Positions 8,048 to 29,913 of a DNA stretch of 64,000 nucleotides are shown here, piece after piece. The DNA is from Trichoplax sp. H2 (taxonomy: Eukaryota). The stretch is taken from contig NOWV01000111.1 of the NCBI GenBank assembly GCA_003344405.1, forward strand, positions 124,001 to 188,000. Direction: 5' to 3'. Position 1 is the first letter of the stretch. Each line of letters begins with the position of its first letter. The notes under the pieces are model-generated. The model saw nothing but the letters and a program-made list of their open reading frames with translations. It was not told the origin of the DNA and searched no databases. The position numbers were made by a program, and so were the translations under genes.

Positions 8048-10869
8048 GTGCAGATCTAGTACTTGTTACAAAATTTGGAAATTGTAACAGTTCCTCTAAT
8101 CAACTGCATAGGTAATTTGGATAAGCTGCTATTTAATTCTGAACATCATATTTCAAATATCTTCGCTTCAATCAGATGAGCATTTACATGATGATATTCT
8201 GTACATTCGGTATCATGAGTCACTTAAGCCTTACGTATTTAGAGCATATTTACTTAATGTGGAAATAATGACTGCAATATAATAATAGTTAATCTTTCAT
8301 CTTTAATCTAATCGCAAGTCATTATAAGAGTGCTTGTATTATGACGACATTAAATACGTATAAAACAATCAACTTTTCTTCCTTTCTAAAATCATCTATG
8401 CGACTAACTCATTTCTAACCGACATAAATTTTTATACTATTTATCAATTTTAATTTTGCTAAATCATGTTGTCGTTATCGACAAACATAACTATTTTACG
8501 AGTACGATATCATTTTGTTTGTTATTAAATATTGCTTACAAATTAGATAATCAATTTAGTCAATCCATATGGTCAGACACGGAATAACTTATTAATAACC
8601 AGCCAAACTATTCCTTAATAATTTTATATACCGGTAAATAATTACTGGAGTTACGAGAGTGATAATATGTTAGCATACTCATATTAATTTAAACTAGCTA
8701 AAGATTTCGAATTTTGATTACAGCAAGTGATATTTGGCCAATCGTAATATAATTTATGACTACTTTCCTAGGTGAACTTTATTAACATTATTGGCGGTTA
8801 GCTCTTAATGGAGGTAGTATCTCTTCAAACACTTACGTTATTTGAAGATATTTGAATTGTACACTTGTAAATATGAACTAAGTTAACATGTAATAAAGTA
8901 AAATCTTACATAAATACAGTAAAATACATTATTATGCAATGATCTACTCATAGAACTGATAATATGGAGTGTAAATACGATTGAGTAAGACAGTATAGAA
9001 CTTTAATTGCTGGTAGGCTGCTTAAACAAGTAAGTCGACCAATAATTCTAGTCTAAAAAAGAATATCCAGATAAAATTAGTCGTTTAAAATTGAAAGTAT
9101 ATTAGCAAAATGAACGATAACGTTATATGCATTTACTTCCTGCAGTCAGATTTTAATTATTCATAAAACAAAATATGGCAGACTACTGTCATTCTTTGGC
9201 TTATTTAGCGCCCTCTTTGAATCAATCACCTATCGCTATATTCTTAGTAGAACACAATCCAGCAGATTGCATGATCTTATTTAACAACATCTTTGAATAA
9301 CATATCTACTACCCATGTTCACAACATACGCGTACATGTCAATCCTGCAGGCATTTATTGTTCTCCTGTATTAATTAAGCTATGGCATGATTGGATATAA
9401 ATTCTACCTAAATATCAATAAATAATTCCATAAAGCAACTTGATATGCAGGCATAACCAACTGTAAATACTTATTAAGCATTCATTGGCATGATTTACTT
9501 GCTTCTCTAGCCTAATCTTTGGACGGAAGGGCTATTTCTCCATTCTTCATAAGTGCCCTTCTATCATGTCGTGATTATGCTATGACCCAATAATAATTAA
9601 CTCAGCTATAGCCTACAGTAATAATATATATCGCCAGGTGCAGTATATAAGCAATTACCGTAGACATTTGATTATTCGATGGACTAGAAAGTGCTTCTTG
9701 ATTTATTGATGCTTTGCCAAAGGTTATCTAGCATCTATGATCATGCAGCGTGCTTCTGTCCTAAAATTATCTGTAGTAGGTCAATCGATATTGACTTGGT
9801 TACTTTACTAAAAAACAAACTACAATTTACCTTTGCAAAGCTCAGCCAGGACTACAAAAAAGAAGGAAGCATAAAAAGTACGTTATAGCTTATGGTGACA
9901 GTTATACACTACAGTTCAGTAATCTGTAAAAAAAAATAGTCAGCCTATCCATTTCTAGTATAGAGGATGATAGCATTGCTTTACTCTCTCCTTTAGTAGC
10001 TTCCGATATAGTTTACAGGAAATATTAAACATTTTCTCATGTTCATGATGAGCTGACCATCAGTATTATTCCAATGCACAGTTTTTATCTATTTCTGTAG
10101 GTATTGCACGAATTTTAATGCTGGAAAATCCTTCTTGACTATTTCTTTAGCCAGTTTGGAGTATATACGCTTACGTGTAAGTAGAATGTTGCAATCATGC
10201 TATCGATTACCTTATCAGATTTATTATTTTATGAATAGTTATATTGAAATACAATACAATTTCTAATGTTCAGAGTACGGAATAAATCTTTAAATAGGTT
10301 AAAAATCAATATTAACCAATTACGCTATTTCAATTAATTTATGAATTAAAGACAATATCATAACCCTCGTAGAATGAAGACTTCGATGAGAGCTAAAAAA
10401 AGTTATCTGGACTAGAAGTCGTAGAAGTATCCGGAAAGTTAAATCTTATGACTGACTTCATTTCTCAAAGAGTTTTTCATTCTATAGGGTATTGCCTGCA
10501 CATAAAAAGTAGATATCGATTATGCAAGTCTTAAATAAGGCTCATAAAGTTAACAAAGACAGAAATATCTGCTCGTACATAATTTTAATCTCGTATCACA
10601 TCTTATATAAATCATTCATGCTAGCAGCGTCGAACATGTCGTTACATTAATCATAACAGGAAAAACTAGTTAGTAATTATAATAACAGTTCATATTAAAC
10701 TTAACATCTGCTATCGAACAAAACTAATAACTAGATATATATGTAAATAGAGTTCACCAATCGCGGAAGGTATTATTTATCGTAAGTAATCTTACGAAAT
10801 GCAACAACAAATAATAAACAATATTTTTGCAACAAGCAATAACGCCTGAGAAAGAATGATCGAACCTTT

Positions 10870-13800
10870 TTAGTATTTTTTGACTGAGGCGTTAGCGTTA
10901 TACTCGTTTTGCTCATTAGTAACTGTGATATTATAATGGCTGTTATTTTGGCTGCTACTTCGGCTGCTATTTCGGCTAATACTTGGAGACTGTATACTTG
11001 GCGACATTCGAGAACCATTTACTTGGAGTACAGATAAATAGTAGTGGTCATCAGTACAAATAGTATTATCTCGAGTAGTAATAAGGTTAGGTTGGATGGA
11101 ACGACTATAACACTTGGTAGCCATATTTCGTACACCACTGACGCAATGAGCCAAATATTGTCGACAACATAACGGTAGACAATTAAAACATTTAAAGAAC
11201 ACCCTTCGCAATAACATCACATCAGTGAAAGTATAAATAAATGGATTAATAGCCGAATTTATAGGCAAAGCTATAATGACAACAAATTGTATTTCAAACA
11301 CATTACTAGTCTGTTGGATAATGGCACGATATAATGTATAATAGAATGGTAACCACGAAGCTAAATCGGATATAATAATAATAAATAATCGAAATGCAAT
11401 AGTTTTATCTTTACTTTCTGTTGATCTACGGATCGTTTTACTACTTTTACGAATGGAATTAAATATTGCAAGATATAAAATGGCAGTAATAAACCAAGCT
11501 ATGATAGTAATAATGGTATATAAAATAATCCAAGCACGATAATAAACATTGATAACATTACTTGGCATGCAAATACTAGAAAAGTAATGTAAGCGTTTAT
11601 CACCATCTTCATTAATGCTAGTTATTGTTGGAATAATACAAAATGTAAATGAGGTTATCCAAGCTGCCAAGATAAGATAACGAGACTGCGATGCTGTTAA
11701 TTTACGAGTTGAAAATGGAAAAACTAGACATATATAACGATCAATAGTAATGATTAACATCATTAAAACCGACATCAGGCTAGAACAAGTACCCAGTAAC
11801 ATCGCAATAGAACATGACCAACTTTTCAACCAAGTTTCAAAGATACTTCCATAAATTCCTTGGTATGTAAGATCAGCTACAGCAAGAATTAATAAGTAGA
11901 TTGCAGTCGTAAAGTCTGCCAATGCCAGATTGGCCACGAGTAAGTGGGGCACTTTTACCGATCGACGTGAATTAATAAAATATTGGACAATAACGCAGAT
12001 ATTACCCACTAACGCAACCAATCCTGTAAACCAGACAAATAATTGTAGAGATAAATGTGTTAATAAGTTACGGCATAATGATAGGCCTCGAAAATTTGTC
12101 TCGGGAGTGCATGTCGTTACTTTAGACGGAACTGCACAACATAGGTAATCTCGTGTTGTTGATCTAGAACAAGAAAAACATAAATTATGATACGTCATAT
12201 TTAACGTAAGCTGGAATTATACAGCATAGGAATTCTCATAATGAAGATCTCAAATACGTGTAAGCATAGACATAAGTCTGAAGAGAGCATAATGTAGTAG
12301 AACTTAGACTGTAATATTACACATGAATAACCTCACTTCTAACAATCTAAAACAAAACAACAGAAAGATGAAAATGTTAATCTGATGGGAACACGGGTAA
12401 GCCGTTACGTCAGTTGGAATTCTGGTCATGGTAAGTAATCTAGTTACAAAAATGCAACTATTAAAATAAAAGAATATATTCCCGACGTATAAGATAAAAT
12501 TTGCAATAAATTAATGTTCATCTAATGTAGCAATCTCTATTACCCGAGGTTATTGAAACATCTCTCAATGCCATACATTTTATCGTTACATTTATATGAC
12601 TATACCTGATTTTTACTGACCTCTATATTACAATTTAAAAATTTTGCATTATCTGTTGACAAGTTTCTAGCATTTAATGTTTATTAATAAAAAGTATATA
12701 ATATCTCACTATCATTCTAATTATTAATGATGATACTGTAAATAAATTAATATTAACTATTAAAGATTTGAGCAAGGATCTAAATATACCGTCCACATCC
12801 TACTTTCGAGAGAAGTTCAGTAACGTATCAATAAAATCATTCTGCTTTTGTCCTGACAATATAGACGTTTATTGTATTACTGACTCTTAACATCACCAAA
12901 TCAATGTTTCTACTGATCTTTATAATAATTTTAATGCTTATTAACAGTATATGATCAAAGCTATCCGAATAAGTAGGAGATATACAAATCCTACTACTGC
13001 TATAAAATAATATTTCTTGATTATGGCTGTAAGCGTAGTAGGATTTTTTCTTTCCAATAACATTTCGAGAGTAAATATTGTTAACAATAATATGTAGGGC
13101 ATATAACAGACAGTGACATCGCAAAAATATCTAGCAAACTCTCATTATACACCTAAAGGCATGCAATAAAACATATATTATTAAATATTATATTTCCTAT
13201 ATACTAAAAGTATTCATCTGACACACAAACATTTTATATGAACATAAACTTACACCGACTGTAATAAAACCGGCCCATAAAATGATTCATGGGTTAAACT
13301 GACCAAACTATTTCGACGCATAGATCTAAACAGACAGATAAACAGCAAAAGCATGTCTAATTAGCATTACTACTGTGTATTGGCTTAGTTACTGACAGAA
13401 TAGCAATATTCAGCATACTATTTTCCGAACAGCTGTTATATAAATTGGGGGATATAGTCTATTTGTTTACTTTCGGATAATAAAGATTTATCATCTTAAT
13501 AATAGTCAGAGACACACAAGAATTAACGGCTCCTTATTATACGAAAGTAATGTAATCATAGTAGCATTCAACTAGTAAAATTGAAAATCATTTCATCAGA
13601 GATAAAATCGATGAAATTTGTAATTTTCGTCAGATGCGACGACATTGAAGTTAAGAATATATAATCAAATTCTCTGTTAAAATCACTGTGTTTTATTCAT
13701 ATAATATATAAATAATCTGCTTAGAAAATAGCACGTTCATTTTAATCTCTTATGCTTGGTACGCCAAATGCCATAAAATACGTAACTAGGGCAACAATAC

Positions 13801-16800
13801 GTGTGATGATATTACTACATCTATCAGATCTATCCAATGTTCCATCACCAGTCATATAAATGATACAGAAACATTAACTGCATTATTACGATCATATATT
13901 TATCTGCATGTTACGTGCATAATTTTGATATTTAGTTCAACTCTTGATGAAATTAGATGCGTCAATGATAACTATTATCAAAACCATTACTGATAGACAA
14001 GTATGTAAACAGACTTCGCTTCACTTCCGCTGGGATGAATAAAATCTATGTCTAATTTCAGAATTGAGTCAGTAAGGATGATAATTAATGGTGATACATT
14101 CTAATTTAGCCTACGTTCATAACATAGATAAAACTAATTTAATTTAATTTTGGACATATAATGGAGTAAATATGCAGATTTTAGTTATATATAGAAATAT
14201 AGTAATCGATAATATTTTGATAACATGCTAACTAAGTCTTTTTAAATTATAATAGGTACGATTTAAAAGACTCTTGTTCATGATCTGATCTCTAGTTGAT
14301 AAATAAGGCATATAACTTAAGTAGCTTTTGTATCCTAGTAAAGAGAGATAATTCTCCGAATTATTGATCTAATGTTGTAGAAAGTTTTGTTTATCAAAGC
14401 TAGCTATTCTGCAAACGAGCTAATTTGATGTATGTACAGATCCTGTAATAAAATCTACATATATTTATTCGAAATCTTTAGCGATCGCTAGTGGCTTTTA
14501 ATCGGAGAAATAGGTATTAGTACATACGCCTACTTACACTGCCTGTAAATTTGATAATCCTCTAAAGCAGCCAGATGTTAAAGAACGAATTCTATTGTTA
14601 TCAGCATACCTAGATTTAATAAAATTAACCAATGATTAGTATGCTAATTTCTTTACAACAGTTAGCTATAAACTGATGATCACAATAAAATCATACAAGT
14701 ATTCCAATTTAGGAAAAACGCCAGGAATATAATTTGTTGCACAAATGTCATGAAAGTTATTTTGAGAGATATTCCTATAATCAATTAAATATGAAAAAAG
14801 TAAATGTAAATGAAATATTTTAGATAATTTTGGCTTTATCTCTTCAAGACTAACAGTAATTCAAGTCCATTCAGACAAATTTTGCTAGATTCTGGAAACG
14901 CTGACAAAAAATTATGGCTTAAATCGCTGAAAAAGATAAGACAAGCCTTTGCGTAAGAACGAAATAGAAGAACGTTACAATGTATTGATGAACCATATTT
15001 ATTCATACAATACAGGAAATAAATGGACAATATCAATTCCTAGATGAATATATCACAAACATATTGACTATAAGGCCCACAGACAATATTTCCATAACTT
15101 CTAATTAACATAACATCAAAAAATGTCGATATTTTTATATTACAAATATGGCTTACAGTCTTTCTAAGTTATCTTCAGAATCTTTAAACAAGATACTGGA
15201 ATCGAAGGTATAGAATTTATTGTATTGCAAATTCCTGAAAAGAGAAAATATAAAAAATATTTTTAAGTCTCATGTACCATAATGTTAAGCGTTATGTAAT
15301 TCCATAAACCAAGTACTAACAATGAGAGTAGGAATCCGCGCAAGTGTTGAAATGTGCCGTTAGGCAAAGTGGATAAATTGCTTCTTGCAATATTTCTGAT
15401 GAAAACAGACATGAAAGAAACCTTCATAAGTCATCGTTAAGTTTCTTCAAAAAGACGTGCAGTTACCCTAATGTAGCGATTAGAGCTTGATAACTTACAT
15501 TTCGAATGTAAAGCAGTCGCGACCGACGGTATTCAGATTGCACCAATATGGAGGTTGTATAGCGGAGACAATTTCGATTATAGTGCTAGTAGTCATATTG
15601 TTATTCCCAAAAGATCTAAAGGATGACAGAGCATTCGTTGATTCTCAATATAAACTTGCATAGTAATTATGAAAGAAGAAATTAAAAATAGCATGAAAGC
15701 TGATATTTTAAAAATTTCTTCATATTTCCTTCAGTATGGTAAATAACTAAAAGAATATTATCATAGCAGAATAGCTGCCCAAGAATCAATATCAATTACT
15801 AATGTGTAATTTTCTGCCTCAACAGTTTAGTTATACGGTATTTACGATAGACCAAAATTGCATATCAATTGCAGTATATGAATAGCACTTACAATTGTCT
15901 CAAATGAGTGGCTAATTTGAAAAATTCAACTGGTAGAGAGATGATATCGTTGCCAGAAATGTCACTAGTACAAAGCGAAAGTTGATAGAGCAAAATCTCA
16001 ACGACAGTATTACTTATGGATTTCTTGAAATAATCAATATCAAAAACTTTTAACCGATTATTGATGACTTACATGCTTTTTAATCGTTTATCCTTTATAT
16101 TAATCAGAACATTTTGGTAAAAATTTCCTAAGTAGCTTTCCAGATGATTGTTGGCAACACCTCTTTAAATTTATATAGAGTTATGTGATCTAGTTTATTT
16201 GATAACGATATGATTTATACCTTTAATAAGTTAAAATATTTTATGTTCACTCACACGGCATACATATGCTCTAACGTATGTTTACAAGGTGCAGAAATAG
16301 TCTTAAATTCATTGCCATTCATATATCTGTAAAATAAAATTATATATTAACAATTAAAAATTTTAATGTTTACATCAGTTATATATTTACGAATTATTAG
16401 GTTAATATCATCATTGCTATATGAACATAAAAACCCCCAACATCGACATTCGATAAATATAATGTCAATTCTTGGCTCATACTGCAACCGCTGACGAGCA
16501 AGATACATGTACAACAGCGTTCTATGGCTCCAATTAGACCTCAAACACAATTTTCTCTATAGCAACTTAAATTACTATATGTGATCATCAACGGTTTTAT
16601 ACCATCAAGTCTATGAAGGAAAGATGTTCACATCGCAAACGTAACATAGTCATCCCTAGATATCCTACCATAACGTCACTGATAACAATTTATTTTCTCT
16701 CAGCATTATCTACATATTCATGTAGATAACGGCATATATTTGCATATATTATCAGTTTATCTAATTTTTGTCCTCACAGCTAAACTTTAGATAACCTATA

Positions 16801-19800
16801 AAGTAAGCGACTGATAATAATTTATTCTTGTCTAAATGTAAGCAGGTAAGCTAATTCATGTCCATACGGCTACGCTATAAATTTAGTTGTTTTTCAATGA
16901 AAATTTACGGTTAATAACCTAAGGAAATATATGTATTTAGTGGTGGCTGTCCGACAACAGAAAATTGTCAGCAGCTGCAACATAACTTAGTATTGGTTTA
17001 TAGATCAATATTAGCCATGTTTAGTATAATGTACTGTAGCTTAGCCTACTAAGTTTAATAGAAGACGTACTTAGTATTCAATAAGCATAAACCATAAATG
17101 AATATTTTATGTTAGAGTACAGACGACCATACACCGTAGAGTGCTAAATCACTATTGATGCTAGAAATAACATAAACATATATTACAACTCTTATATTGG
17201 GATACGGATAATTCATCACACTATGATCAATTGAAATTGATACCTGCATAAATACCGTAGCTGTTACTATAATTAACTATATTAGGTCTACTGTAGTACA
17301 TGTTGCTAGTATATAAAAACCTGAATGCTCATAAAGTAAGATGGAACATTGGTATGCTGATTGTAGCTGCATGTGATACCCAGAGTATATCAGCAGGCGA
17401 CTTAAACCAGAAAATCAATAATCATTTTCTTTCTGGCTCGATTTATCTAAGTATAAATTTTATTTTAGAACTAAAGAGGATAATTAGGTGTCATTTTAAA
17501 AGAGTTTTGTTAGCGGAGATAGTACTTTATGTAACAAGTCTTGGTTTGTAACACTAGTATGAAATATTGGCCGTCAGCTGAAAAATATTCAAGTTAAAGT
17601 GTTAACTAAGGATAATTAACAGGTAAGTACACATGGAACAATAAATGGTCATCTGAGCGTCTAGATATAGCATGAGCTTAAAATTAAGGCTTAACGACTT
17701 ACAAATTTTTAATACCCTCAGGAATTGATTCACACCGCCAGTCAGAAATCCGATTATTATTTAATGATCTGTTTGATATGATATAGAATATTTATAACTT
17801 TTAGTTTGAAGTTATACCATAGAATCATATGCTAGTAGATCTTTATTTTAATTCTTAGATATGATTCAGTATAAAATATGAAGTTAAAAGTCGAGAAAGT
17901 GCATTAATCTTACATGGTAGTTAATTTATTTGCACCGCTAAAAGCATGACGGCCTATGATTTTAATGTTATTTCTGTCCAAGTTGCTTTTCGTTATTACA
18001 ATTAAAGACAAGAAGTCAAATATAAGTTTCAATATATCTAAGACTTATAGCTTTATAAATCAGCATATACCGCTTTTCATTTAGAACATTCACGTGTAAA
18101 GATATTTTCAATTTATTGCACTTCACAATATACAAATCCAGTTAAAGTTAATGTCGATATATAACCTCTGCATTCATCACCAAAAATAGCATATTTTTGG
18201 TGACGACAAATTTTCGTCGCTTGAATCAAAATGATAACAAATTTGCGGCAGTTATAAAGTAAGTTATTGTATTTACATATCTTCAATAAGCATTTGATCA
18301 TCATAATGATTTCGTAATGATAGCGTAAAGAATCTAATAATAAGGAATTGCTATTACAAATAAAAAACATGTATACAAATTTATCTGCAGTATATAGTCT
18401 CTGCACCCCCACTAATATAGTACTAAAATCAAAATAATCTTGCAAAAGAATTTACATTTAAGCAGATCAAATGAAACTATCTCCTAACAAAACCAATCAT
18501 TATTCACGAACAATAAAGCATTACCGCATATGACAGATTCTTTCTTAGCTCAGAATTTAAAATAACCTAATACTAGTTATTGTAATAGCATAACAACTTA
18601 CATCGTCTTTAATTTTTTAAGGTGTTTCAAAGGAGAAGCTTCTAATGTGATAATTGAATTTCCTTGTAAATCTCTGATGTATTACAAATTAAATCAAATT
18701 AATCAACAGCTTGAGACTCAACCCTGAAAGTAGCCTATAAGAATATATTGATTAAAATATCTCACAGTTGCAGTAAAGACGCCAAATCTTGATGAAATGA
18801 GATGTTAACATCAACGACTTTATTGTTATCCAAACTCCTAATCAAATCGAAAAAATGATGATAATATTTCTAAGCTTTCCCAACATATGTTACTTTCATT
18901 ATACCATTTCCGATATAGTAGCTTATCCTCTTTGTCAATTTGAAAACTCACAATTTTTGTAGAGATTTTAAACCTTGAAATGCGCCTGAAAGAATCACTC
19001 TGATATCGTTATTTCCCAAGTTTCTGTAAATTTTTATAAATTAAAAAGGAGAAATTTATGCATATGTAACTACGGTTAATATTTGACAAAATACTGCAGC
19101 AAAATTTAAAATTACTCTATAACGATAACAAACTGATAATGTAAAAATTGTAAACTTAGTAATAAATTCAAAATATATTTTATCTAAATAAGAGATCATT
19201 CATATCTTAGAAGTGACTGAGTGATGAGGAATTGCATAGTAGTTACTGTACAAAGCAAACTATACCCATATATCATATAGCTATCCGTAAGATAAGAGAT
19301 AGATTAGAACTGGCCATATCAATGCATAACTAACATAGTAAGAGCAATTAAAACGCGCAAATTATGCATATGGAACTACCATCAAATTTTTTAAAATATT
19401 CTGCTGCAATTCAAAATTATTCTATGATGCAAACAAAATTATAACAAAGAAATTATTAACTAATTGATAAAATAAAAGTAATTTTATCCATATATGGGAT
19501 TATTTATAACTGGAAGGTAGCTAAGTGATGCTGAATTGTACTATAATAGCTATATAAAGTAAAACTGCACACATTGGTCACACAGTTATCCGTAGGATAA
19601 GAGATAGGGTGGAACCCAGCAATGTCAATACAGAAAACAAGCGTTACAAGGATAATTCTCTTTATTAGCAAACCACATGGTAGATTAGCTAGCTTAGCAA
19701 TAGAAAATTAAAGTTATTCATATAATCTCCTTACGCTATAACTTTGGCCATGACACCTACTTACAAGTTATCTAAATTGAGATTTGATTGAAATATCCCA

Positions 19801-22800
19801 TTACTTAATAAGACAAGACGATTATTACGCAAGGACCTATATGGTGTTGTTCAAGACAAGTGATGAAAGTTTATACGATTGATTTGAGGTATTAATTTAT
19901 AGCGACACCTAAATAGCAAATAATTACAATGATTTTAAACTTTTTAAGTAGGATAAATCTGTTGATAGAAGTACCATTATCCTGTTATCATTGATGTTCC
20001 TGATGGCATCATAAATATAAATCAGTAATCATTTGTTATATCAACAAAAAATTAGCTGGCTTACAATTTCTCTAAATAAGTCAGGTATCTACTAAAGCGT
20101 AAATTTTCCAAGATATTGAACGATAAATCCCTGCTCAAAATACGCAGTAAAAGAAATAGTAAAAATATATTAATCGCTCTCTGTCTTTTATCAATTTTTA
20201 TGGAGCCTAATAATAATAGTATTTTGTAGTTTAAGGAAAAATTCGGAATATTATATAGAATTAATGTATACTCACATATAAGTTAGCTTGTGACAGTTTT
20301 GAAATGTATCAGTCCGAATATTAGAAATATCATTGTCCCGGAATATCCTGTTAGATATCGAAATTGATAATAATGTTGGCAAATATTTCTAGACATATGT
20401 TTCATGAATGAATTCTGTTATTAAATCTTTAAAGTTTAATTAATAGATAGTTTCCTCATGATATAAGGACACTTACAAATTTCTAATCATGTCTCCGTTA
20501 ATCCAACTATCAAGTATATTCTTGTCAAGTCGATGAAGATTATTGTGACTTAAATCGCTAGTCATGGTAGTGTGTGTAAAATATTTTAGTGATTAAATTA
20601 CTTAGGTACTTATTTAGAATCACTCTCACGATCTAAGTGTAGGCATAAAATATAACAAACATCTAGTGAAATGTGATAGTTACGGAATTTATAGTAGTCA
20701 TTGAAATCCTATCTTTTAAGTTACTGATTTGCAAAGATGGAAAGTGATACATTCATAAATGATTCAATGTAGCTAATACTTACAGCCAGCGAAATTCTGA
20801 CACTACTATAATCTAATGTAACAATATTATATTTATTTAGTCTAAATTTTTCTATAAGTCTAGATTTTAGAGCTGATACACTGAACATATAACATCTAAG
20901 CTAAAAGAAGATGAATGAGTAACGGATCTAATCAAATAGATATTGCATTGCTAATTCGATTTCTACTGAATTTAATTTAAAATCGGACATAACAAAAAGG
21001 AAAAGCTAGACTTTTTTCATATCTTGTAACCTGTAAAGGTTTACAGGACTAATGATTGGTAAATAACATAGAATCTATTAAGCATCTCCTGAAAATACTG
21101 GATAATAGTATAACAGCTAAGCAAATTAGAGTAAAGTTGTAGGAAGTCAAATTGGGAGTAGCAACATTAAATTACTCAAACTAAGAAAATTTTATCAATT
21201 TAATCCTACTGTTCTAGATATTATTCGCATCTTCAAGTGACAATTGCAATAATATCATCAAATAGAGCCTCTAAAATATGATTCAACATGCCTGATAATT
21301 CTAAGATAGCATGCTAAAAGAAGTGCGCAACTTATTCATTAATAATCTCTCGTAATCATTAGACATCAAGATAGCTAATAAATACTTTATCTTACAAAAA
21401 TTTGTTATAAAATTTAATATTATTTGTTACATACAGTGTAGTTAGTGTGGTCAAATTCTTCAATTTGAGTACTTTAGATTCATCAAAAGCGTTACCGGAT
21501 AAATTCCTAAAGAGAAAATTCTATATTATAGTAATATTAATCTATAAATTACAAAGACTTAAAGTATTGATAATCTCAGCAAATTGGTTAAAAATGTTTG
21601 TTCTTTCATTATGTTGTACAAGACCTTCCTAATTTAATATTTTAATATTAAAAATCCTAGCTAACAATTTATGATGTACGTGTATACCAGAAACTAATAT
21701 CAACTAGTTATCATTAGTGTTCTTTCTATCTATAGAAATTTGCAAGAATTATTTGTTTAAATGATATTTTTATGTTTGTAATGATTGACTTACAAGACTT
21801 GAAGGCGGATCATCGAGTTGATAGATGGTATAGAATTGACATTGCCATTCGATAAATCTCTGCGATGTTATAATAGCGATACCGATAATTAAAACTTCGA
21901 CAGATGATATTTAAATTAATTACTTAAAATACTTGATATTTAGAGTTGTCGGATAACTACAGTACACCTACAGTTTTGTGATATTTTTCCATATCTCGCT
22001 TCCAACTGCTTTGACCTCTGTTATGATGTTAGAATCAATTTTCCTGTAAATTGGCATGTATGTATTGTAAAATAAAATCGAAAATTTTATCTTTGCCAGG
22101 ATTTCATGATCTATATCGTAATAACTTAAACTATATAATAATTTTAATCGTAAAATACTGTATTGGTCTTATCAATGATATCATCAATTTCCCATTATTT
22201 AAGCATATAACAGAATTTTTTTCAATTTTCTATTCGATAGAATAAGAATTTTATAATTTGAAATCACTTAATTTAGCTATCGAGATTTTGTAAAAGCTAT
22301 TAGGATTATAACTTACAGATCTTGTAGAGCAGGAAAGAATGATTCAAAAATTTCCGCTGGATTACTTATGCGGTTTCCTCCTAGCCAACTAAATAGTATG
22401 TAATCATAATTATTGGCATTCGTTAGCACAGTATCTTTTCGGAGAAGACTGACAGTTATTAAAGTTGTTACATTATTAGGCTATATCACAACTGAATAAA
22501 TTAGATAAACAGAGAAATTACTCATGACTACTTTACTCTATGCAACTTACAGATATTTTAATTGATCAAGTCCACAAAATGCATCTTGACTTATTATTTT
22601 AATAGCGTTGTTTCTTATTTGTCTAGTTGAAACACATATGTGCAAAACACTTAGTACTCAGACTAAAATAATATTCATTCATTGATACGAGGAAATCTCA
22701 ACAAAAACTCCAATTTGATATCGCAATCAATTAATTAATTAATGTATTAATGCAAAAATTTGCGTCGATATTCTAATGAATTAGCTTACAGTCTTTGTAA

Positions 22801-25800
22801 TTGAGTTAAGCCTTCAAATGGACAGTGTTGAAGATGTACAATATTATTTTCGTCTAAAATGCTGGATAAGTATCGTGATTTAATATGCAATTCAACATGA
22901 ATAGTACATAGTAAGCCATATCTATGAATACTTACAGCTTTTGTAGTTGGTTTAAATCTCGGAACATGCTGTTGTTGATTGATACCAGATAATTATATGA
23001 TAAATCTCTGTAATTAATAGAAAGTAATCTATTAAACACGAATCAAGAATTCATAGTGTACCATTAATTCTACAGCATGTTTTAATTTGAATGAAGGAAT
23101 AAAAAGAATATGATCATTTACAATTCCTGCAAAGTTGAAAGACCAATCAACGCATCATCCTCGATTAACGAGAGACGGTTGGAGCTTAGATCACTAATTA
23201 AATATGATAGATTTGAAGGATTTTGGTTAGTTTTCGTTATTTTATCGTCTATTCTTAACTTACTTAAACTAAAAGTCACATTTTAAATTGATTATTTACA
23301 CACTACTGCACGAATTTCACTGTATATAATGTCATAAGCTGCGCATACATTGTTTCTATCGTCTTCAAGCCTTCCAAAACACGATTTTCTAATCTGCTAA
23401 TTTCGTTTACTGATAGATCTCTAGGCATCATTAATCGAATTTTAAGCAATTAATACCACAATCATCTTCTTGAAATGCTTGCTATGAATTATAAATGTTC
23501 TTGAAGACTATTTACAATGTTTTCAATTGCACCAAATCCTGGAATTGATTGGGCTTCAAGCCAGTGATTTTGTTAAAATATAGATTTCTGGGGTAATGAC
23601 GATCAGAAATATTATATGACATTAAATTCTGTTTTAATGATTGTTACTCTACGCAAATATAGCAATTGCACTGCGAAATTTAATTTTCAAAATTTTTACA
23701 GCGAAATCATAAACTTACAAAGTCTGCAATTGATTAAGCCCTTGAAATGTCACATTTACCATGAAACGGATATTGTTATATGGCAATTGCCTGCCACAAA
23801 ATATGGTTAATATTATTAGTAAGTACAAGTTTGTTATTTGCTATAAGATTATAGAGAGATTTAAGAAAAGAATTTTTTTTGTTGATCAAAAATGTTTCTG
23901 CTCAATTCTGTTTCAAATTAGTAATTTCCGATTTACAATATCATTATGGAATAAGAATCATCATTACTAAATACAGAATAGCAATGACTATGAAAGTAAG
24001 CAATTTAGCCGCAATCTTTGACCGCATTATAATAAGGACAGATATATCGAAGCAAAGCTTTGAAAACTGCGATAGGAATATTATGACTATACAGTAGATA
24101 TGTAATAGTGAACAGTAATTAATTTTCTCTAGCTTCATTAAGTAGCATATTTATATCCGTAGTTTCTTAAAATAAGGCAAATTCAGAAGGCAATTTAAGA
24201 ACGACAAAGCTATTGCAGATTTCCGTGAAAAGCTGCCGAAATAGCTAGTAATGTTTATTCTATAAACTAGCTAATTCTAGAAACTGATTATCTCTTGTTA
24301 GAAAATTGAACGGGAATACTTATAATCTCTACCAAATCGAATTGTAGGTAAAAAAGAACTTACAAATTTTGTAAGGAATTCAGCTGTTGTTGAGAGAAAA
24401 ATTGTCCTTGAATTGTTTGTAATACTCCATTTGAAACTAACCTAAAAGTCCGAATGAATTTCTAAATGACCCTTGATATCACTACTAACGTACAGCCTCA
24501 ATTTAGCCAATGGTTTAAAGCCTATGCTATTTATTTGGACTTACAATGTTCTGAGCTTACGTAATGGGTAGAATATCTCAGGTTCAAGGGTTAAAATATT
24601 ATTCTGTTCTATATTCCTACAGATATTTTGCGGAAAAGATGTCGGTAACGATTAAATATTGATAATATAGTAAGAATTTTATAGCTAAAGCATTATTCAT
24701 CGCGATCAAATACACTATAAATATTTCATAATAAAAATTAGTTTAACATCATTACTAGTCATTTGACTCCCATCTATTAAATTATCGATGTAATCTAAGC
24801 GGAATTAAATTAATAAAATGGATAATATAGCTTTCGATTTTTGTATCTTGGGAAGTACGAGATATTTCCTACAAAATTTGTCATCGTATCGAATACCACC
24901 TTATTTGATGGTAAAACTAGTAATAGCAAATTTGTGAGCAATAAGTATTTGTGAATTAATTCATAAACCAACTCACAAAGAAAGTAATTCTGAGCAATCG
25001 CTAAGGCTTTTCGGTTCAATCCATTTTATCTGACATCCTTCTAAATTTCTGTAATATTAAATTTAGGTACTTAGAATATTTAAAACTTTCGTCTTTGGTC
25101 CAAAATGTGCTACTTAATAATACAAGTAGCTTTCACGTCAATTTTTTGTATTGATATTTATACAAAATGGTTCAGTTATGACTTACAAACTTTTAAGTTT
25201 AAATAAATTTTTAAATGTCGTAGAATTAATTCTCTGAATATTATTCCTTGCTAAAGATCTGTCAATGATCGAAATCGGATTCAAATAAAAATTAGAAGAT
25301 TGATTAAAGAAATTTAAGAGACTGGCAAATCGTGAAAATCATCCCTTAGATAAATTATTTACAGTATAGACTTTTCTAAATTACGTTAACTATGTTCTGA
25401 TACTTACAAATGGGCTAGTGAAGGTAATCTGGTAAATGCTCCATCAGTAATTGAGTTAATTTCATTTTCATTTAATAACCTAGAAATATTCGACCGTAAG
25501 ATTGCAAATTAAGTTTTTAGGTATATTTTAAAACATCACATTTTTAAAGTGCTTGGTACATGCTATAATAACAAAGATAAAACATGAATATACTATATGA
25601 AATAGCCTTACAGTGTTTCTAAACTTGTCAAATGAAACATTTTAGCATTTATCATGCTTAACCGATTACCAGCTAAATTTCTGGTCATAAATAGAAATTA
25701 GATTAGCATCTAACTTAACACTACTGAATTATTAAAAATTCGAAACTGATTAATTATTCGAAAATCTTACATAGTTCGCAAAAATTTGAAACCATTGTTA

Positions 25801-28800
25801 TTAAACGCGTCTTTCCCAATATCTTTAATTCTACAGTTGCTAGCTGAACTACAAAATTAAAAGTTAGCAGATAAAAGATTAGCCCTACAGAGCATTCCAT
25901 TCTACTGTACGTGTATGCAGGATACCAGAATCAAATCATTTAAAATAATATACTACAATGTTTCACAGTTTAAATTTTACTACTTCTTTTTGAGAAACAT
26001 TACAGTATAGTTGTGATCTAAATGTACTACCGGATAATTATTTTTAAGTGAAATTAAGAGTTAAAGTTGATTTCGTTTTAATTAGTCAAAGTTATATAAA
26101 TTCGTAACTAACACTTGCATATGATGATTATCAACTAATAATCTACGACTTATTATTAGTTATTACGTTAGTAAAACGGGAACATATGATTATTTCCAAA
26201 CTGAAAATCCTCCTTCTCTAATTATATAATACTATCACGGTATGATTGCAATTTCCTGTAATTCAACTGCTGTAATATAAGACATAAAGCTGGATACCAT
26301 TAGATTATGCAATATGACAGAAACCTAATTAATTTCTGAAGATTTATGTAGAATTGTAGTTTTCTTCAAACTAGGTAAATAACAATATATTACATCAGAT
26401 AAATTATCTCATTCTACTAAATTTTTAGAAAGATGAAGAGAATGCAAGGATAAATTATTCCCATAATTACCAGGTATAAAAATCAAAGCCATTTATCATT
26501 AAGAAACTTACAAATATACGAGCTGTGTCAGACCGGCAATGATACCAAGGCGAATTGATGTTATGGGATTGTTATTAAGGGATCTAATTTAATTCAAATC
26601 ATTAATATACCACATGAAAGTATATTGGTAGAAAAACAGTCTCTACTATATCGTCAATTACTGGTAAATTCAGTAACGAAAGGGAAGATGTTTTATTATA
26701 CGTCATTACAGTGATATTAGGTTTGCCAAATCATCAAATGTTCCGTCTTCAATGTAAGTTATAGAATTTCTTGATAAAGATCTAATTAAAAGGCAAAGGA
26801 TAAAAATTTTTTTTATTGCCGATTTATTGATAAAGTTAAGTTTCTTCTCATAGTAGATCATTTTCATCTAGAAGTAATTTACAATTGTTTTAAATTTGAT
26901 AATCCCGAAAACATTCCTCTGTGTACTTCAACCAAAGAGTTGATTTCCAGCGTTCTACGTTAATAATAACAAAAGCAAACATATCAGTTTTTTGTATCAT
27001 TTCTTGAATAGTTATTAGCTGCGAATATACTATTCTACTATAGTAAATTTTATAAGCGTTTACTATGGATTATCTTGCTTTCTAATATAGATTTATTAAA
27101 TCACTATCAACTACTCTCTACGATGAAATCATAAAATCAATTACATTAAAGGTAGTCAAATTTTTAAATGAAGTATGATCAACTATTGACTTTGTTGATT
27201 GTATAGTTAAAGGTATAATGTTGAATAGACAGTAAACCCAGATAAGTATTTGATAGGCAAAACAGAAATAGAGCTCGCAATCCAACACTTCCATTATTAG
27301 CCAAACTCGTTATTTTAACGGGTATATACTGCTAGTGAGATATGAAATTATTTCTAAAAATCCTTCGTTAAGGTTTATCAATACTAGTAAAGTTTTTGGA
27401 TATCCTTGTTTATATTTATTCACCACTTGTTCAATAAAAATACGCGTATTTATAATAAATGGAAGGTAAATGGCATAAGGTTTTCTATATAATGTACGTA
27501 TTCTTACAGATTTGTGAGGTATTGCAAGTTTTGAAATGATCCGTTACATATTGTTTTAATCTTGTTTGCAGCCAAATTTCTGTATATCCGGATTAATAAA
27601 TAGTTGACAATCGTTAAATAATTAATTAAAAAATGACTCAAAGTATCCATTGATAAAATACACTCATCTATCCGAGATGAAAAACAAGCTTACAATATTA
27701 AGAGCCCACGTAATCCATAAAATGTTTTATTACAAATTTCTTCAATAGCATTGCTGGCTAAATTCCTTTATGAAAATATAACGTATTAATTATGAATAAT
27801 AACTAGTTCATCGTTTACATTAGTGTCAATTAGTACACATTATTTTACTAAAAGAAATGTGAATTTAAAAATGCCCTCAACTCTAAAGATTATCAAGCAT
27901 TACAGGTTTATGAGATTAGGAATCCATAGAAATGGATTTTCGTCCATAGAATCGATTGAGTTGTCATCTACGAATCTTTCAAATATAGCAGATAAAAATA
28001 TCCAAAAATAGCGAGGTGAAAAAGTGGTTTTAAAGTAAGTGTCAATAAAATAAATCATAGCGAAAAAGGACGTACAACTCTCTCAGATTTGGTATTCCAA
28101 TGAAATGTTCATTGCGAATACGCTCGACTTTATTGGCTCGTAAGTTTCTAGAGATAGGTCAAATTAATAGACCAGAGCAAATTCAGTATTTAACAGAATA
28201 AAATGATGCAAATAATTCTATATTCGATTTATAGCTCGGCCATGAAAATTAAAAGAAAGTAATGTATTTATTTTAGGATCGTAAAAATTGTTGAAGTCTG
28301 TTCTTATTTGAAATATTTACAAAAAAATACAGTTAAAATATATATTAGTAAAACTTCTAACGTATCGTAGGGTAATATAACAATATTATTATATTTTTAG
28401 CACTAATATGAGTATACCTATCATTAGAATCTCAACCAGATTACATACCAATTTATCCATGTGTCCAATTAGATACATAGCTGGCATTACATGCATTTTA
28501 CTGTTTATATTACTGTAATTTACTGGAAATTGATCAGAATTTATAGTTACGCCTTGCACACGAGATAATTTCAAAGTAATAATCAAATTGAATAAGGCGT
28601 TACTAGTAGTAATTAATGTATTAATTTAATTTTTATTTTGGAATAGAATATATATATAAGTTTACAGCTATTAATAACGCCTTCTAGATGGTTTAAAGAA
28701 AATTTAAATTTGACAACACTGCTAGGATAAATCGTCAATAACTACATATTTCAAAGTTATTAGATAATCCAATATGTACAAAGACAACGATATTATGGCG

Positions 28801-29913
28801 TAATGCGATAAAACTTACCTCGATTTCAAATTAGTTGTTACTCTATAACTAAGAAATATTATTTGGGTTCATAAATTCATATTCAATAGTTATGAATAAG
28901 TCGCTTAGTTTTTTAAAGCGTAATTACTGTCAATTTTTGTCAAGGTGTTAATTTTGTATCCCTCTTAGTAGCTCGAAATATGAAAGTTGTCAGGATCTGT
29001 ATACATGTACACAATGATGTATACAAGCTCGTAACTAATAATTACAACTAGTTCATTGTAACTCTACCTAAGCTTCAGTAATACTTATAAATAATGTAAG
29101 GTATGATTGTAGGTATGACAACGATTCTAACTTCAATTTAATAATGCAAGGTGTTATAAATTGCATCATAAAATATACTCACAGCGTAGTCAAATTGCTC
29201 AAGCCACTAAAAGTTCGATTGGAAAGATATTCGACGTCATTATGGATTATTGTCCTATTTCATTATTAAAAGTGTTACAAATTCATATTTCTACTTATAA
29301 TATCAGCTTTTGCTATTTCTGAAATATCAATTTATATATACATATGCAACAGTTAAATAGTACAGAATACAGTATCCATCAACTCCACATAACGGCATAG
29401 ACATACAATATTTGCAAGTTCGGATATCGCAAAAAGCTATAAGGTGGTAATAGCTCCAAATTACTGTTTCTAATCCACCTGTAATTATAATAAATAATAT
29501 GCTTGAATTAAGCTTTTATGGGGTGGTATGGAATAGGGTATTTTCATTTGAAAATTTTCTTTATAACATTAGCGATAAGCTTTGAATTACATGTTTGTCT
29601 TCGTTTTATCCGTTGTGCTCAATTGGATAACAGAGATTGATATATCAACGCAACTGATCGATTGATTGTTACAAGTACAGCCAGTGACGCAAGTCGAGGA
29701 AGTAGCTAGAGAAAAGTTAAAGGTATTAAAATTTTAGCAGATATCTTAGATAGAGCAACTGTTACGATAATTAAAACTCTTTTTCATATGATCAGTCTAG
29801 TCAAATGGAGAAGGAAGCTGCTATCCAGTAAACTTACCGTTAGGTAAAAGGGCAATACATATTACTATTGACAGAGGGAGCATATACGTTGAAAGTGATA
29901 TATAGCCCATCAT
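10870..29913 (-). CDS. Giant leucine-rich-repeat class A GPCR (LGR/GRL101-like 7TM), ~49 exons, ~1,600 aa
   Basis: Exon 1, 29838-29913: signal peptide (MMGYISLSTYMLPLSIVICIALLPN). Exon 2, ~29591-29706: LRRNT (CVTGCTCNNQSISC). About 46 small phase-2 exons between ~29478 and ~13253, e.g. NLAANKIKTICNGSFQNLQYLTNL, SLSRNSITYIEDGTFDDLANLISL, DLSSNRLSLIEDDALIGLSTLQEL, NLGNNDIRVILSGAFQGLKSLQKL. Terminal exon 10870-~12166: hinge (DYLCC..C..SLCRNLL) and 7TM (GNICV, NLALADF, ITIDRY, SDLASWLP, LPINSAINPFIYT). Confidence 0.9.
19200..19640. repeat. Diverged direct duplication (~305 bp period) in an LRR-GPCR intron
   Basis: 'tatccgtaagataagagatagattagaac' (~19283) versus 'tatccgtaggataagagatagggtggaac' (~19588), with alignable upstream flanks ('gagtgatgaggaattgca' versus 'aagtgatgctgaattgta'). 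Confidence 0.65.

What the first reader, a model, noticed from the sequence alone, without database searches (positions are those of the whole stretch)
10870..29913. Giant LRR-GPCR whose ectodomain is ~46 frame-compatible, one-repeat-per-exon cassettes
Seen: one signal-peptide exon, one LRRNT exon, ~46 small exons (mostly 72 nt, some 66-117 nt) that I read as phase 2-2 with lengths divisible by 3, then one 7TM exon. Known: bilaterian LGRs carry about 9-17 LRRs, and 72-nt phase-2 LRR exons are normal in them, so the unusual part is the number. Inference: any subset of exons can be skipped without a frameshift. The locus could therefore produce a combinatorial repertoire of sensory or immune receptors on a single 7TM (analogous in logic to Dscam or VLR), or one exceptionally long solenoid.
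Basis: partly seen in the sequence, partly recalled or inferred. Interest (0 to 1): 0.8.

Follow-up and report, generated by a model that had tools for sequence, protein, structure and literature searches.

The report
Giant 47-repeat LRR receptor gene, Trichoplax
This is one expressed placozoan gene for a G-protein-coupled receptor whose outer part is built from 47 one-repeat exons; it belongs to an already described placozoan receptor family, and the RNA data show the full-length form, not a mix-and-match repertoire.

Summary
On the minus strand, 29913-10870 holds one open 1,648-aa CDS in 50 coding exons: signal-peptide exon, Cys-cap exon, 47 LRR cassette exons (35 of 72 nt, the rest 66-117 nt, all phase 2, all GT-AG), and one hinge+7TM exon. 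Any exon-to-exon jump keeps the frame: 0 stops in 1,176 possible junctions.

The 7TM is 99% identical to a 305-aa Trichoplax adhaerens fragment, TRIADDRAFT_15334. Its nearest solved relatives are RXFP1, TSHR, LHCGR and FSHR. A 2022 review already describes 41 Trichoplax-specific LGRs with unusually many LRRs, for example 34. This gene has 47, and I found no full-length public model.

Spliced contigs from four runs match 15 of 15 displayed junctions. Every model exon is covered at one flat depth, and one 4,363-nt contig appears to carry the 7TM exon plus about 41 cassettes. The dominant product is therefore one very long solenoid on one 7TM.

A combinatorial repertoire has no support. Contigs cannot exclude rare skipping, and 38 of 53 joints were not displayed. 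Verdict: new member of a known kind, moderate-low interest.

The parts
30307..30336 (-). 3' end of a non-coding 5'UTR exon. Its upstream limit was not determined. The intron is 30306-29927.
   Evidence: The X16 loose end behind 29928 maps to 30309-30336. GT/AG borders were read.
29838..29926 (-). Coding exon 1. ATG at 29913; encodes a hydrophobic signal-peptide-like N-terminus; ends in phase 1.
   Evidence: The joint 29705/29838 is seen in all 4 runs. Hydrophobic segment at residues 2-30.
29591..29705 (-). Exon 2. LRRNT-like cysteine cap with four Cys spaced C-x3-C-x-C-x6-C; phase 1 to phase 2.
   Evidence: Joints 29478/29591 and 29705/29838. Pfam finds no family in the 37-aa piece.
13254..29478 (-). 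Array of 47 LRR cassette exons (exons 3-49), one repeat each, all phase 2/2, 3,462 nt in sum. Median intron over all 49 introns of the gene is 132 nt. Eleven introns are 273-1,376 nt; ten of them lie in or flank this array.
   Evidence: HMM hits are confined to this stretch. Thirteen of the 15 displayed joints lie in it or at its ends. Depth-per-exonic-base is flat.
15499..15615 (-). Exon 43 (117 nt). One LRR plus a roughly 15-aa island with two Cys, six cassettes before the hinge. Islands with two Cys at the same relative place were seen by eye in paralogs P0002, P0033 and P0037.
   Evidence: Joints 15395/15499 and 15615/15893.
10865..12163 (-). Exon 50. Cys-rich hinge plus rhodopsin-type 7TM plus C-tail, with the stop at 10872-10870. 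DRY and NPxxY motifs are present.
   Evidence: Pfam 7tm_1 E=1.1e-26. Motifs and seven hydrophobic segments. Joint 12163/13254 in 4 runs. 99% identity to TRIADDRAFT_15334.
10468..10494 (-). Start of a 3'UTR exon. The intron 10864-10495 begins 5 nt after the stop. An unspliced form is also present.
   Evidence: Loose ends of X18 and X20 before 10865 map to 10468-10494. X20 record 24 is colinear over 10501-10894.

Best explanation
This is a single, intact, expressed Trichoplax gene. It encodes a 1,648-aa orphan receptor of the placozoan-specific branch of the leucine-rich-repeat GPCRs (LGRs). The order of parts is: signal peptide, Cys cap, about 47 typical 24-residue LRRs (each on its own phase-2 exon), a short two-Cys island six repeats before the end, a Cys-rich hinge, and a class-A 7TM with DRY and NPxxY.

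Shown: the gene structure, the open frame, its expression as spliced RNA, and the dominant form containing all cassettes.

Inferred:
- The repeats form one continuous solenoid, as in the fold of a 30-repeat paralog. With 47 repeats it must wind beyond a full horseshoe into a superhelix.
- A ligand binds the concave face. My guess is that binding is near the conserved membrane-proximal repeats, island and hinge, with signalling to a G protein as in RXFP1 or TSHR.
- The uniform exon phase is the inherited LGR exon design, which allowed growth by exon duplication long ago. It is not a device for making isoforms.
- Ligand class is open. I lean about 55:45 to an environmental, microbial or other lineage-specific protein ligand over a conserved hormone. 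The reasons are that the family is a 41-member lineage-specific expansion and that placozoans lack canonical TLRs.
For: Gene model and frame:
- 50 coding exons, 1,648 codons, no stop, 49 of 49 introns GT-AG, 47 cassettes all phase 2.

Identity:
- 302 of 305 residues identical to TRIADDRAFT_15334.
- Pfam 7tm_1 at 1.1e-26.
- All 10 PDB sequences at E<=1e-10 are LGR-type. Nine are named: RXFP1 at 5e-34, TSHR x4, LHCGR x2, FSHR x2. One is unnamed.
- The protein is colinear with placozoan paralogs at 30-36% identity, anchored at the 7TM.

Expression and inclusion:
- 15 of 15 displayed joints fall on predicted borders, each in all 4 runs. Those runs come from 3 studies and carry two organism labels.
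- In X16, depth per exonic base is 17.3-18.0 in 19 of 25 exon-containing bins. The other 6 are higher and none is lower. Intron-only bins read 0-2.8, except one.
- The X18 contig of 4,363 nt places the 7TM exon and exon 43 exactly 447 nt apart, which is the sum of the six exons between them. Its length fits exons 50 to 9 plus 7 nt.

No isoform machinery:
- No repeat family above about 80% identity and no shared intronic elements.
- Cassette exons average 40% identity, with a maximum of 62.5%.

Fold (paralog only):
- The AF2 model of paralog P0034 (pLDDT 78) has 31 evenly spaced strands followed by the membrane helices.
- Its best PDB matches are full-length LGR4 (E about 1e-25), then TLR13, TLR7/8 and FLS2.

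Literature:
- 41 T. adhaerens-specific LGRs with their own hinge and unusually many LRRs, for example 34 (PMC9545775, passages).
- No canonical TLRs in placozoans (PMC6321704, passages).
Against: - Only 15 of 53 joints were displayed. My model has 49 introns in the laid stretch, so at least 4 joints are unaccounted for. They could be alternative junctions or alignment variants.
- No displayed joint lies between exon 42 and exon 10. Contiguity there rests on contig length and flat depth.
- X18 has zero depth on exon 8. Its 5' contig runs from exon 7 into 14 letters that match no exon start in the window.
- An X20 contig runs from exon 12 into the upstream intron (to 25934) instead of splicing.
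- The bin 16441-17100 has high depth in X16 and X18 with no model exon.
- Two of the four runs are labelled RNA only by guess.
- The spliced protein could not be given to Pfam, AF2 or the databases, so the fold and the LRR calls for this gene rest on local HMMs and on paralogs.
- Ligand, G-protein coupling and cell type are untested.
Confidence: 0.82

Rival explanations
1. Combinatorial receptor repertoire. Cells skip different subsets of the 47 frame-compatible cassettes, giving many ectodomains on one 7TM. This would be Dscam-like in logic.
For: - Every possible skip is in frame, with a hydrophobic junction residue (1,176 of 1,176).
- At least 4 of the 53 joints are not explained by the 49-intron model and could not be seen.
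- Single LRR-exon skipping exists in human LGR5, as the delta-5 and delta-8 variants (PMC10470845, passage).
- Public models of two paralogous loci differ by 6 and 10 in-frame blocks of 24-51 aa. These are gene predictions, not transcripts.
Against: - All 15 displayed joints join neighbouring exons in all 4 runs.
- Exon coverage is flat, and none of the 25 exon-containing bins falls below the contig depth in X16.
- The donors are strong: the consensus over the 32 clearest cassettes is GTAAGT.
- There are no arrays of similar alternative exons and no conserved intronic pairing elements.
- The same phase design is the ordinary LGR exon layout (as stated in the finding; recalled, no call).
Confidence: 0.07
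2. Two or more genes were read as one. For example, a secreted LRR protein upstream of a shorter LGR.
For: - The only public model is a 305-aa 7TM fragment.
- In X18 the contigs break at exon 8, and in X16 at exon 39/40.
- There are long introns (553-1,376 nt) inside the array.
Against: - One open frame runs across all 50 exons, with a signal peptide only at the N-terminus.
- The X18 contig carries the 7TM exon together with about 41 cassettes.
- Depth is equal on all exons in X16.
- Three of the long introns (1,035, 1,090 and 1,212 nt) are bridged by displayed joints.
Confidence: 0.03
3. The gene is a decaying or non-functional copy of the expanded family. It is transcribed but makes no working receptor.
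For: - It belongs to a large lineage-specific family (41 members; PMC9545775).
- Several repeats are irregular (exons 39-43).
- One LRR-like, out-of-phase relic lies in an intron at about 16853-16780.
Against: - 4,944 coding bases have no stop or frameshift, and 98 splice sites are intact.
- DRY, NPxxY and the hinge cysteines are kept.
- Contigs under two organism labels are mostly 95-99% alike and spliced the same way.
Confidence: 0.04

Closest known systems
Trichoplax adhaerens-specific LGRs (e.g. 'Tadh-LGR-15', 34 LRRs) described in the 2022 review PMC9545775
   Same: - Placozoan origin.
- LRR-only ectodomain with an unusually high repeat number.
- Its own Cys-rich hinge.
- 7TM 37-57% identical to the other clade members.
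- Colinear with paralogs.
   Different: - It has 47 cassettes against the 34 given as the example.
- Among the clade members returned, the longest ectodomain is about 875 aa (P0037), against about 1,220 aa here.
Type-B LGRs (LGR4/5/6)
   Same: - LRR horseshoe plus hinge plus class-A 7TM.
- LRRs encoded by many small exons: LGR5 has 18 exons, with 1-17 extracellular.
- The paralog model's best structural matches are full-length LGR4.
   Different: - 16-18 LRRs against 47.
- A different hinge (review).
- By sequence the 7TM is nearer to RXFP1 and TSHR.
- The review found no type-B LGR in Trichoplax.
GRL101 / relaxin-receptor type-C LGRs
   Same: - They are the best non-placozoan sequence relatives of the 7TM (29-33% identity).
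- RXFP1 is the top PDB hit.
   Different: - There are no LDLa, CUB or lectin modules. The long GRL101-like homologs are mosaics with few LRR_8 matches (0-3 stretches) in 18 of the 21 proteins scanned. The 3 LRR-only ones are placozoan-clade.
- Here the whole ectodomain is LRR.
Large LRR ectodomain receptors (TLR7/8/13, plant FLS2/BRI1)
   Same: - A long single solenoid of more than 25 LRRs.
- The paralog model superposes on them.
- An island interrupts the array a few repeats before the membrane, as in BRI1 (recalled, no call).
   Different: - The signalling part is a 7TM GPCR, not a TIR or kinase domain.
- There is no sequence relationship beyond the LRR motif.
Dscam1 / lamprey VLR diversification systems
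   Different: - No clusters of similar mutually exclusive exons and no docking or selector repeats.
- No sign of cassette choice in the contigs.
- DNA rearrangement was not examined.

Membership tests
LGR (leucine-rich-repeat-containing class-A GPCR) | Rhodopsin-type 7TM domain | tested here: met
   Pfam 7tm_1 at E=1.1e-26, covering profile positions 1-260 of 260. Seven hydrophobic segments, DRY and NPFIY.
LGR (leucine-rich-repeat-containing class-A GPCR) | 7TM sequence closer to LGRs than to other class-A receptors | tested here: met
   All 10 PDB sequences at E<=1e-10 are LGR-type: RXFP1, TSHR x4, LHCGR x2, FSHR x2, and one unnamed.
LGR (leucine-rich-repeat-containing class-A GPCR) | N-terminal ectodomain of tandem LRRs | tested here: met
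   47 cassette exons with consensus xLxxNxIxxIxxxxFxGLxxLxx. The local HMM hits only this array. Paralogs give Pfam LRR_8 down to 1e-100. The spliced protein itself could not be sent to Pfam.
LGR (leucine-rich-repeat-containing class-A GPCR) | N-terminal Cys-rich cap (LRRNT) | tested here: inconclusive
   A four-Cys pattern is present in exon 2. Pfam finds no family in the 37-aa exon at E<=1.
LGR (leucine-rich-repeat-containing class-A GPCR) | Cys-rich hinge between the LRRs and TM1 | tested here: met
   The hinge cysteines and prolines are invariant in 9 paralogs (C709, C710, P713, C719, P721, C731 of P0034). They are present here.
Canonical LGR types A, B, C | Type-specific hinge; LDLa module for type C; 9-18 LRRs | tested here: not met
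   The ectodomain exons encode only the cap plus LRRs, and there are 47 repeats. The review states that the placozoan-specific clade has its own hinge. I did not do a hinge-type comparison myself.
Placozoan-specific LGR clade (41 genes, PMC9545775) | Trichoplax gene with its own hinge, many LRRs, and a 7TM clustering with other placozoan LGRs | tested here: met
   99% identity to a T. adhaerens protein. The named nearest relatives are Trichoplax proteins at 43-48%, against 33% or less for the named relatives from other animals. No tree was built.
Placozoan-specific LGR clade (41 genes, PMC9545775) | Listed among the 41 accessions in the review's Supplementary Table S2 | not testable with these tools
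A full-text search for the two locus tags found 0 papers.
Dscam/VLR-like combinatorial diversity locus | Transcripts that use varying subsets of the cassettes | tested here: inconclusive
   The contigs show only neighbour-to-neighbour joints among the 15 displayed, and flat exon depth. Contigs drop rare variants, and 38 joints were not displayed.
Dscam/VLR-like combinatorial diversity locus | Arrays of closely similar alternative units with shared selector or flanking elements | tested here: not met
   The maximum exon-exon identity is 62.5% and the mean is 40%. No repeat families beyond short 70-80% matches.

The most novel reading that the evidence does not exclude
The uniform phase-2, Leu-junction design may be exploited. 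At low frequency, or in particular cells, cassettes would be skipped in frame. One locus would then yield receptors with different solenoid lengths and binding surfaces on one 7TM. In an animal without TLRs, the 41-gene family would serve as a diversified GPCR-coupled recognition system for microbes or food.

The evidence leaves room for this:
- At least 4 undisplayed joints exceed the 49 model introns.
- One run lacks exon 8.
- Public models of paralogs differ by whole cassettes.
Probability: 0.07. Interest if true: 0.8.

Novelty: new member of a known kind. Interest (0 to 1): 0.3.

Why it matters
The gene shows how far the LGR design can be stretched. It has 47 repeats on one GPCR, about three to five times the 9-18 of canonical LGRs, and more than the 34 given in print for this placozoan family.

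The public annotation found here is only a 305-aa 7TM stub. Automated models of sister loci drop whole in-frame cassettes. Family surveys based on those models will therefore undercount both repeats and genes.

The receptor is an orphan in an animal with no neurons and no TLRs. Finding its ligand would show what a 41-gene LRR-GPCR expansion is for. As a claim of a new diversity-generating mechanism, it currently has no support.

Tried and rejected
- Whole-genome search for paralogs: no genome is held for this window.
- Earlier scan notes by place, sequence and words: nothing returned.
- Full-length ortholog in protein databases. The 'longer' search (785-2,240 aa) returned only paralogs at 48% or less. 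The tool warns that this is weak evidence.
- Extra or relic LRR exons in the long introns:
  - tblastn with 3 paralogs gave only E>1 hits.
  - An HMM on stop-masked frames found none at 6 bits or more (this was a weak test, with only 22 true exons reaching that score).
  - One LRR-like out-of-phase piece was seen by eye at about 16853-16780.
- My first unguided exon-chaining run over-called 76 exons and was discarded.
- A regex LRR count over-calls inside 7TM regions and was not used.
- The intronic direct repeat 19044-19349 / 19350-19655 holds no exon.
- The X18 loose end after exon 7 matches no exon start or any place in the gene at 12 of 14 or better. It is therefore not a simple skip junction, and it remains unexplained.
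- Pfam on single exons is uninformative because they are too short.
- Parts without RNA cover: X18 bin 27001-27660, and several intron bins.
- The AF2 fold is of a paralog. No coordinates were available to measure the superhelix.
Full report
**What is there**

The minus strand between 29913 and 10870 carries one gene. The large open frame at 12216-10870 is a rhodopsin-type 7TM (Pfam 7tm_1, E=1.1e-26, full profile).

I enumerated AG...GT segments open in a phase-2 frame and found a long series of 72-nt exons, each encoding one leucine-rich repeat. Joining them gives:
- 50 coding exons and an uninterrupted 1,648-codon frame.
- Exon 1 (29926-29838, ATG 29913) encodes a hydrophobic signal-like N-terminus.
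- Exon 2 (29705-29591) encodes a four-Cys cap.
- Exons 3-49 are the cassettes: 35 of 72 nt, 4 of 78, 3 of 66, and one each of 69, 75, 81, 90 and 117 nt.
- Exon 50 (12163-10865) encodes the hinge, 7TM and tail.

All 47 cassettes are divisible by three and sit in phase 2. All 49 introns are GT-AG, with a median length of 132 nt; eleven are 273-1,376 nt.

The split codon at each junction is the first hydrophobic position of the repeat (L 36, I 6, V 3, M 2, F 1 of 48). All 1,176 conceivable exon-to-exon jumps give L, F, I, M or V and never a stop.

**More than chance**

An HMM built from 32 cassette peptides scores 10 bits or more at 34 places, all on the minus strand between 13256 and 29477. The best score anywhere else in the window, on either strand, is 9.0 bits. 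Thirty-two of the hits are the training exons, so the control is the silence elsewhere.

**Is it real and is it one gene?**

Thirteen public runs hold at least half of the sampled words of 10870-20869, so the locus is not an assembly artefact. I laid four runs: two on record as RNA and two guessed RNA, from three studies and two organism labels.

- *Junctions.* The tool found 53 joints and displayed 15. All 15 fall on predicted exon borders (allowing for the tool's stated cut offsets), each in all four runs. They include three long introns (1,035, 1,090 and 1,212 nt) that contain no exon.
- *Depth.* Contig depth is flat per contig, so depth times bin width divided by the exonic bases of my model should be constant if every exon, and nothing else, is covered.
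  - In X16 it is 17.3-18.0 in 19 of 25 exon-containing bins. It is higher in 6 and lower in none.
  - In X18 it is 12.4-12.8 in 17 of 25.
- *One long contig.* An X18 contig of 4,363 nt places the 7TM exon and exon 43 exactly 447 nt apart, which is the sum of the six exons between them. Its length equals the 3'UTR piece plus exons 50 to 9 plus 7 nt.
- *UTR introns.* Loose ends revealed a 5'UTR intron (30306-29927) and a 3'UTR intron (10864-10495) that starts 5 nt after the stop. An unspliced 3' form is also present.

The dominant RNA therefore carries the cassettes consecutively, from a single transcription unit.

**Limits of that evidence**

- Contigs drop rare variants.
- 38 joints were not displayed. 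None of the 15 shown lies between exon 42 and exon 10.
- My model predicts 49 introns in the laid stretch, so at least 4 joints are unaccounted for.
- X18 has no cover on exon 8. Its 5' contig continues from exon 7 into 14 letters that match no exon start, or any place in the gene, at 12 of 14 or better.
- An X20 contig runs from exon 12 into the intron up to 25934.
- The bin 16441-17100 has high depth in X16 and X18 without any model exon.

These points are unexplained.

**Identity**

The 7TM exon is 302/305 identical to TRIADDRAFT_15334, a partial 305-aa Trichoplax adhaerens protein. The window therefore comes from Trichoplax, and the public annotation found here covers only the 7TM.

No full-length model appeared among proteins of 785-2,240 aa. 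The best were paralogs at 48% identity or less (the tool calls such absence weak evidence).

All 10 PDB sequences at E<=1e-10 are LGR-type: RXFP1 at 5e-34, TSHR, LHCGR, FSHR and one unnamed. DRY, NPFIY and seven hydrophobic segments are present, and the ectodomain has 18 N-glycosylation sequons.

The spliced protein aligns colinearly with placozoan paralogs at 30-36% identity. The alignment is anchored at the 7TM, with the extra length at the N-terminal side.

A library-wide HMMER search found 204 representatives at E<=1e-30. I scanned 21 of the longest listed hits with Pfam. Eighteen are GRL101-like mosaics (CUB, LDLa, lectin and others) with few LRRs. The 3 LRR-only ones are placozoan-clade, and the longest has an ectodomain of about 875 aa.

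**What is already known**

I read passages and the Figure 5 legend of the 2022 review PMC9545775. It reports 46 LGRs in T. adhaerens. [quoted passage not shown] Its example is Tadh-LGR-15, with 34.

Canonical LGRs have 9 (types A and C) or 16-18 (type B) repeats (same legend).

I could not open the accession table. A full-text search for the two locus tags found no paper.

Human LGR5 has 18 exons, with exons 1-17 encoding the extracellular LRRs. It has variants lacking exon 5 or exon 8 (PMC10470845, passage). Frame-neutral LRR-exon skipping is therefore a known, minor phenomenon in this superfamily.

**Combinatorial idea**

Beyond frame compatibility, nothing supports it:
- Cassette exons are old and diverged: mean 40% nt identity, maximum 62.5%, against 28% for shuffled composition.
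- There are no tandem arrays or shared intronic elements.
- The donors are strong: the consensus over the 32 clearest cassettes is GTAAGT.
- The contigs show inclusion.

Public models of two sister loci differ by 6 and 10 in-frame blocks of 24-51 aa, at 99-99.5% identity otherwise. These are gene predictions. They show that predictors drop such exons, not that cells do.

**How it probably works (inferred)**

An AF2 model of the 1,062-aa paralog P0034 (9-sequence alignment, mean pLDDT 78) has 31 regularly spaced short strands followed by the membrane helices. Its best structural matches are full-length LGR4 (E about 1e-25), then TLR13, TSHR, FSHR, FLS2 and TLR7/8.

By extension, this gene's 47 repeats form one solenoid that must wind past a closed horseshoe. 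That is a geometric expectation; it was not computed.

By eye, the family shares a two-Cys island about six repeats before the hinge. It also shares an invariant Cys/Pro hinge. The N-terminal repeat number varies between members. I therefore guess that signalling-relevant binding is membrane-proximal and that the distal repeats add surface or reach.

Placozoans lack canonical TLRs and have expanded arrestins and lectin-GPCRs (PMC6321704, passages). An environmental or microbial ligand is therefore as plausible as a hormone.

**Verdict**

The gene is an unusually long, under-annotated member of a published placozoan LGR expansion. The single-solenoid reading is supported. The repertoire reading is unsupported but not excluded.

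Noticed in passing
window 1897-2686 (-): Two open frames match the Pfam Amidase family (E=4e-33 and 4e-11). They are probably exons of a neighbouring amidase gene.
   Followed up: partly
window 54120-54485 (-): An open frame matches Arrestin_N (E=2e-12). A placozoan arrestin expansion is described in PMC6321704. No link to the receptor is shown.
   Followed up: partly
window 19044-19349 and 19350-19655: A tandem duplication of about 306 nt lies inside intron 34 (between exons 34 and 35), at about 75% identity. It contains no LRR exon.
   Followed up: yes
window 16780-16853 (-), inside the 1,376-nt intron: An LRR-like peptide (an L..L.L..N.L motif) is followed by a GTGAGG donor, but it is in the wrong register and phase. 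It may be a decayed cassette. The surrounding bin 16441-17100 has unexplained high depth in X16 and X18.
   Followed up: partly
window 27508-27579 (exon 8): Run X18 has zero depth on this exon. Its contig runs from exon 7 into 14 letters that fit nothing in the gene. The other three runs cover exon 8 at full depth. It may be a strain-specific variant cassette.
   Followed up: partly
window 10495-10864 (-): An intron in the 3'UTR starts 5 nt after the stop codon. Both spliced and unspliced forms are present in the contigs.
   Followed up: partly
window 29917-29922 (-): A minimal upstream ATG-TAA pair lies in exon 1, just before the start codon.
   Followed up: no
proteins P0001/P0002 and P0036/P0037 (paralogous loci, not in the window): Pairs of public gene models for near-identical loci differ by 6 and 10 in-frame blocks of 24-51 aa, that is, one or two LRR cassettes each. 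LRR-GPCR models in placozoan annotations are likely to be systematically too short.
   Followed up: yes
window 18113-18451 (-), intron between exons 37 and 38: A 112-aa open frame with no Pfam match. A low-depth X18 contig covers 18247-18412. It is probably chance in AT-rich sequence.
   Followed up: partly
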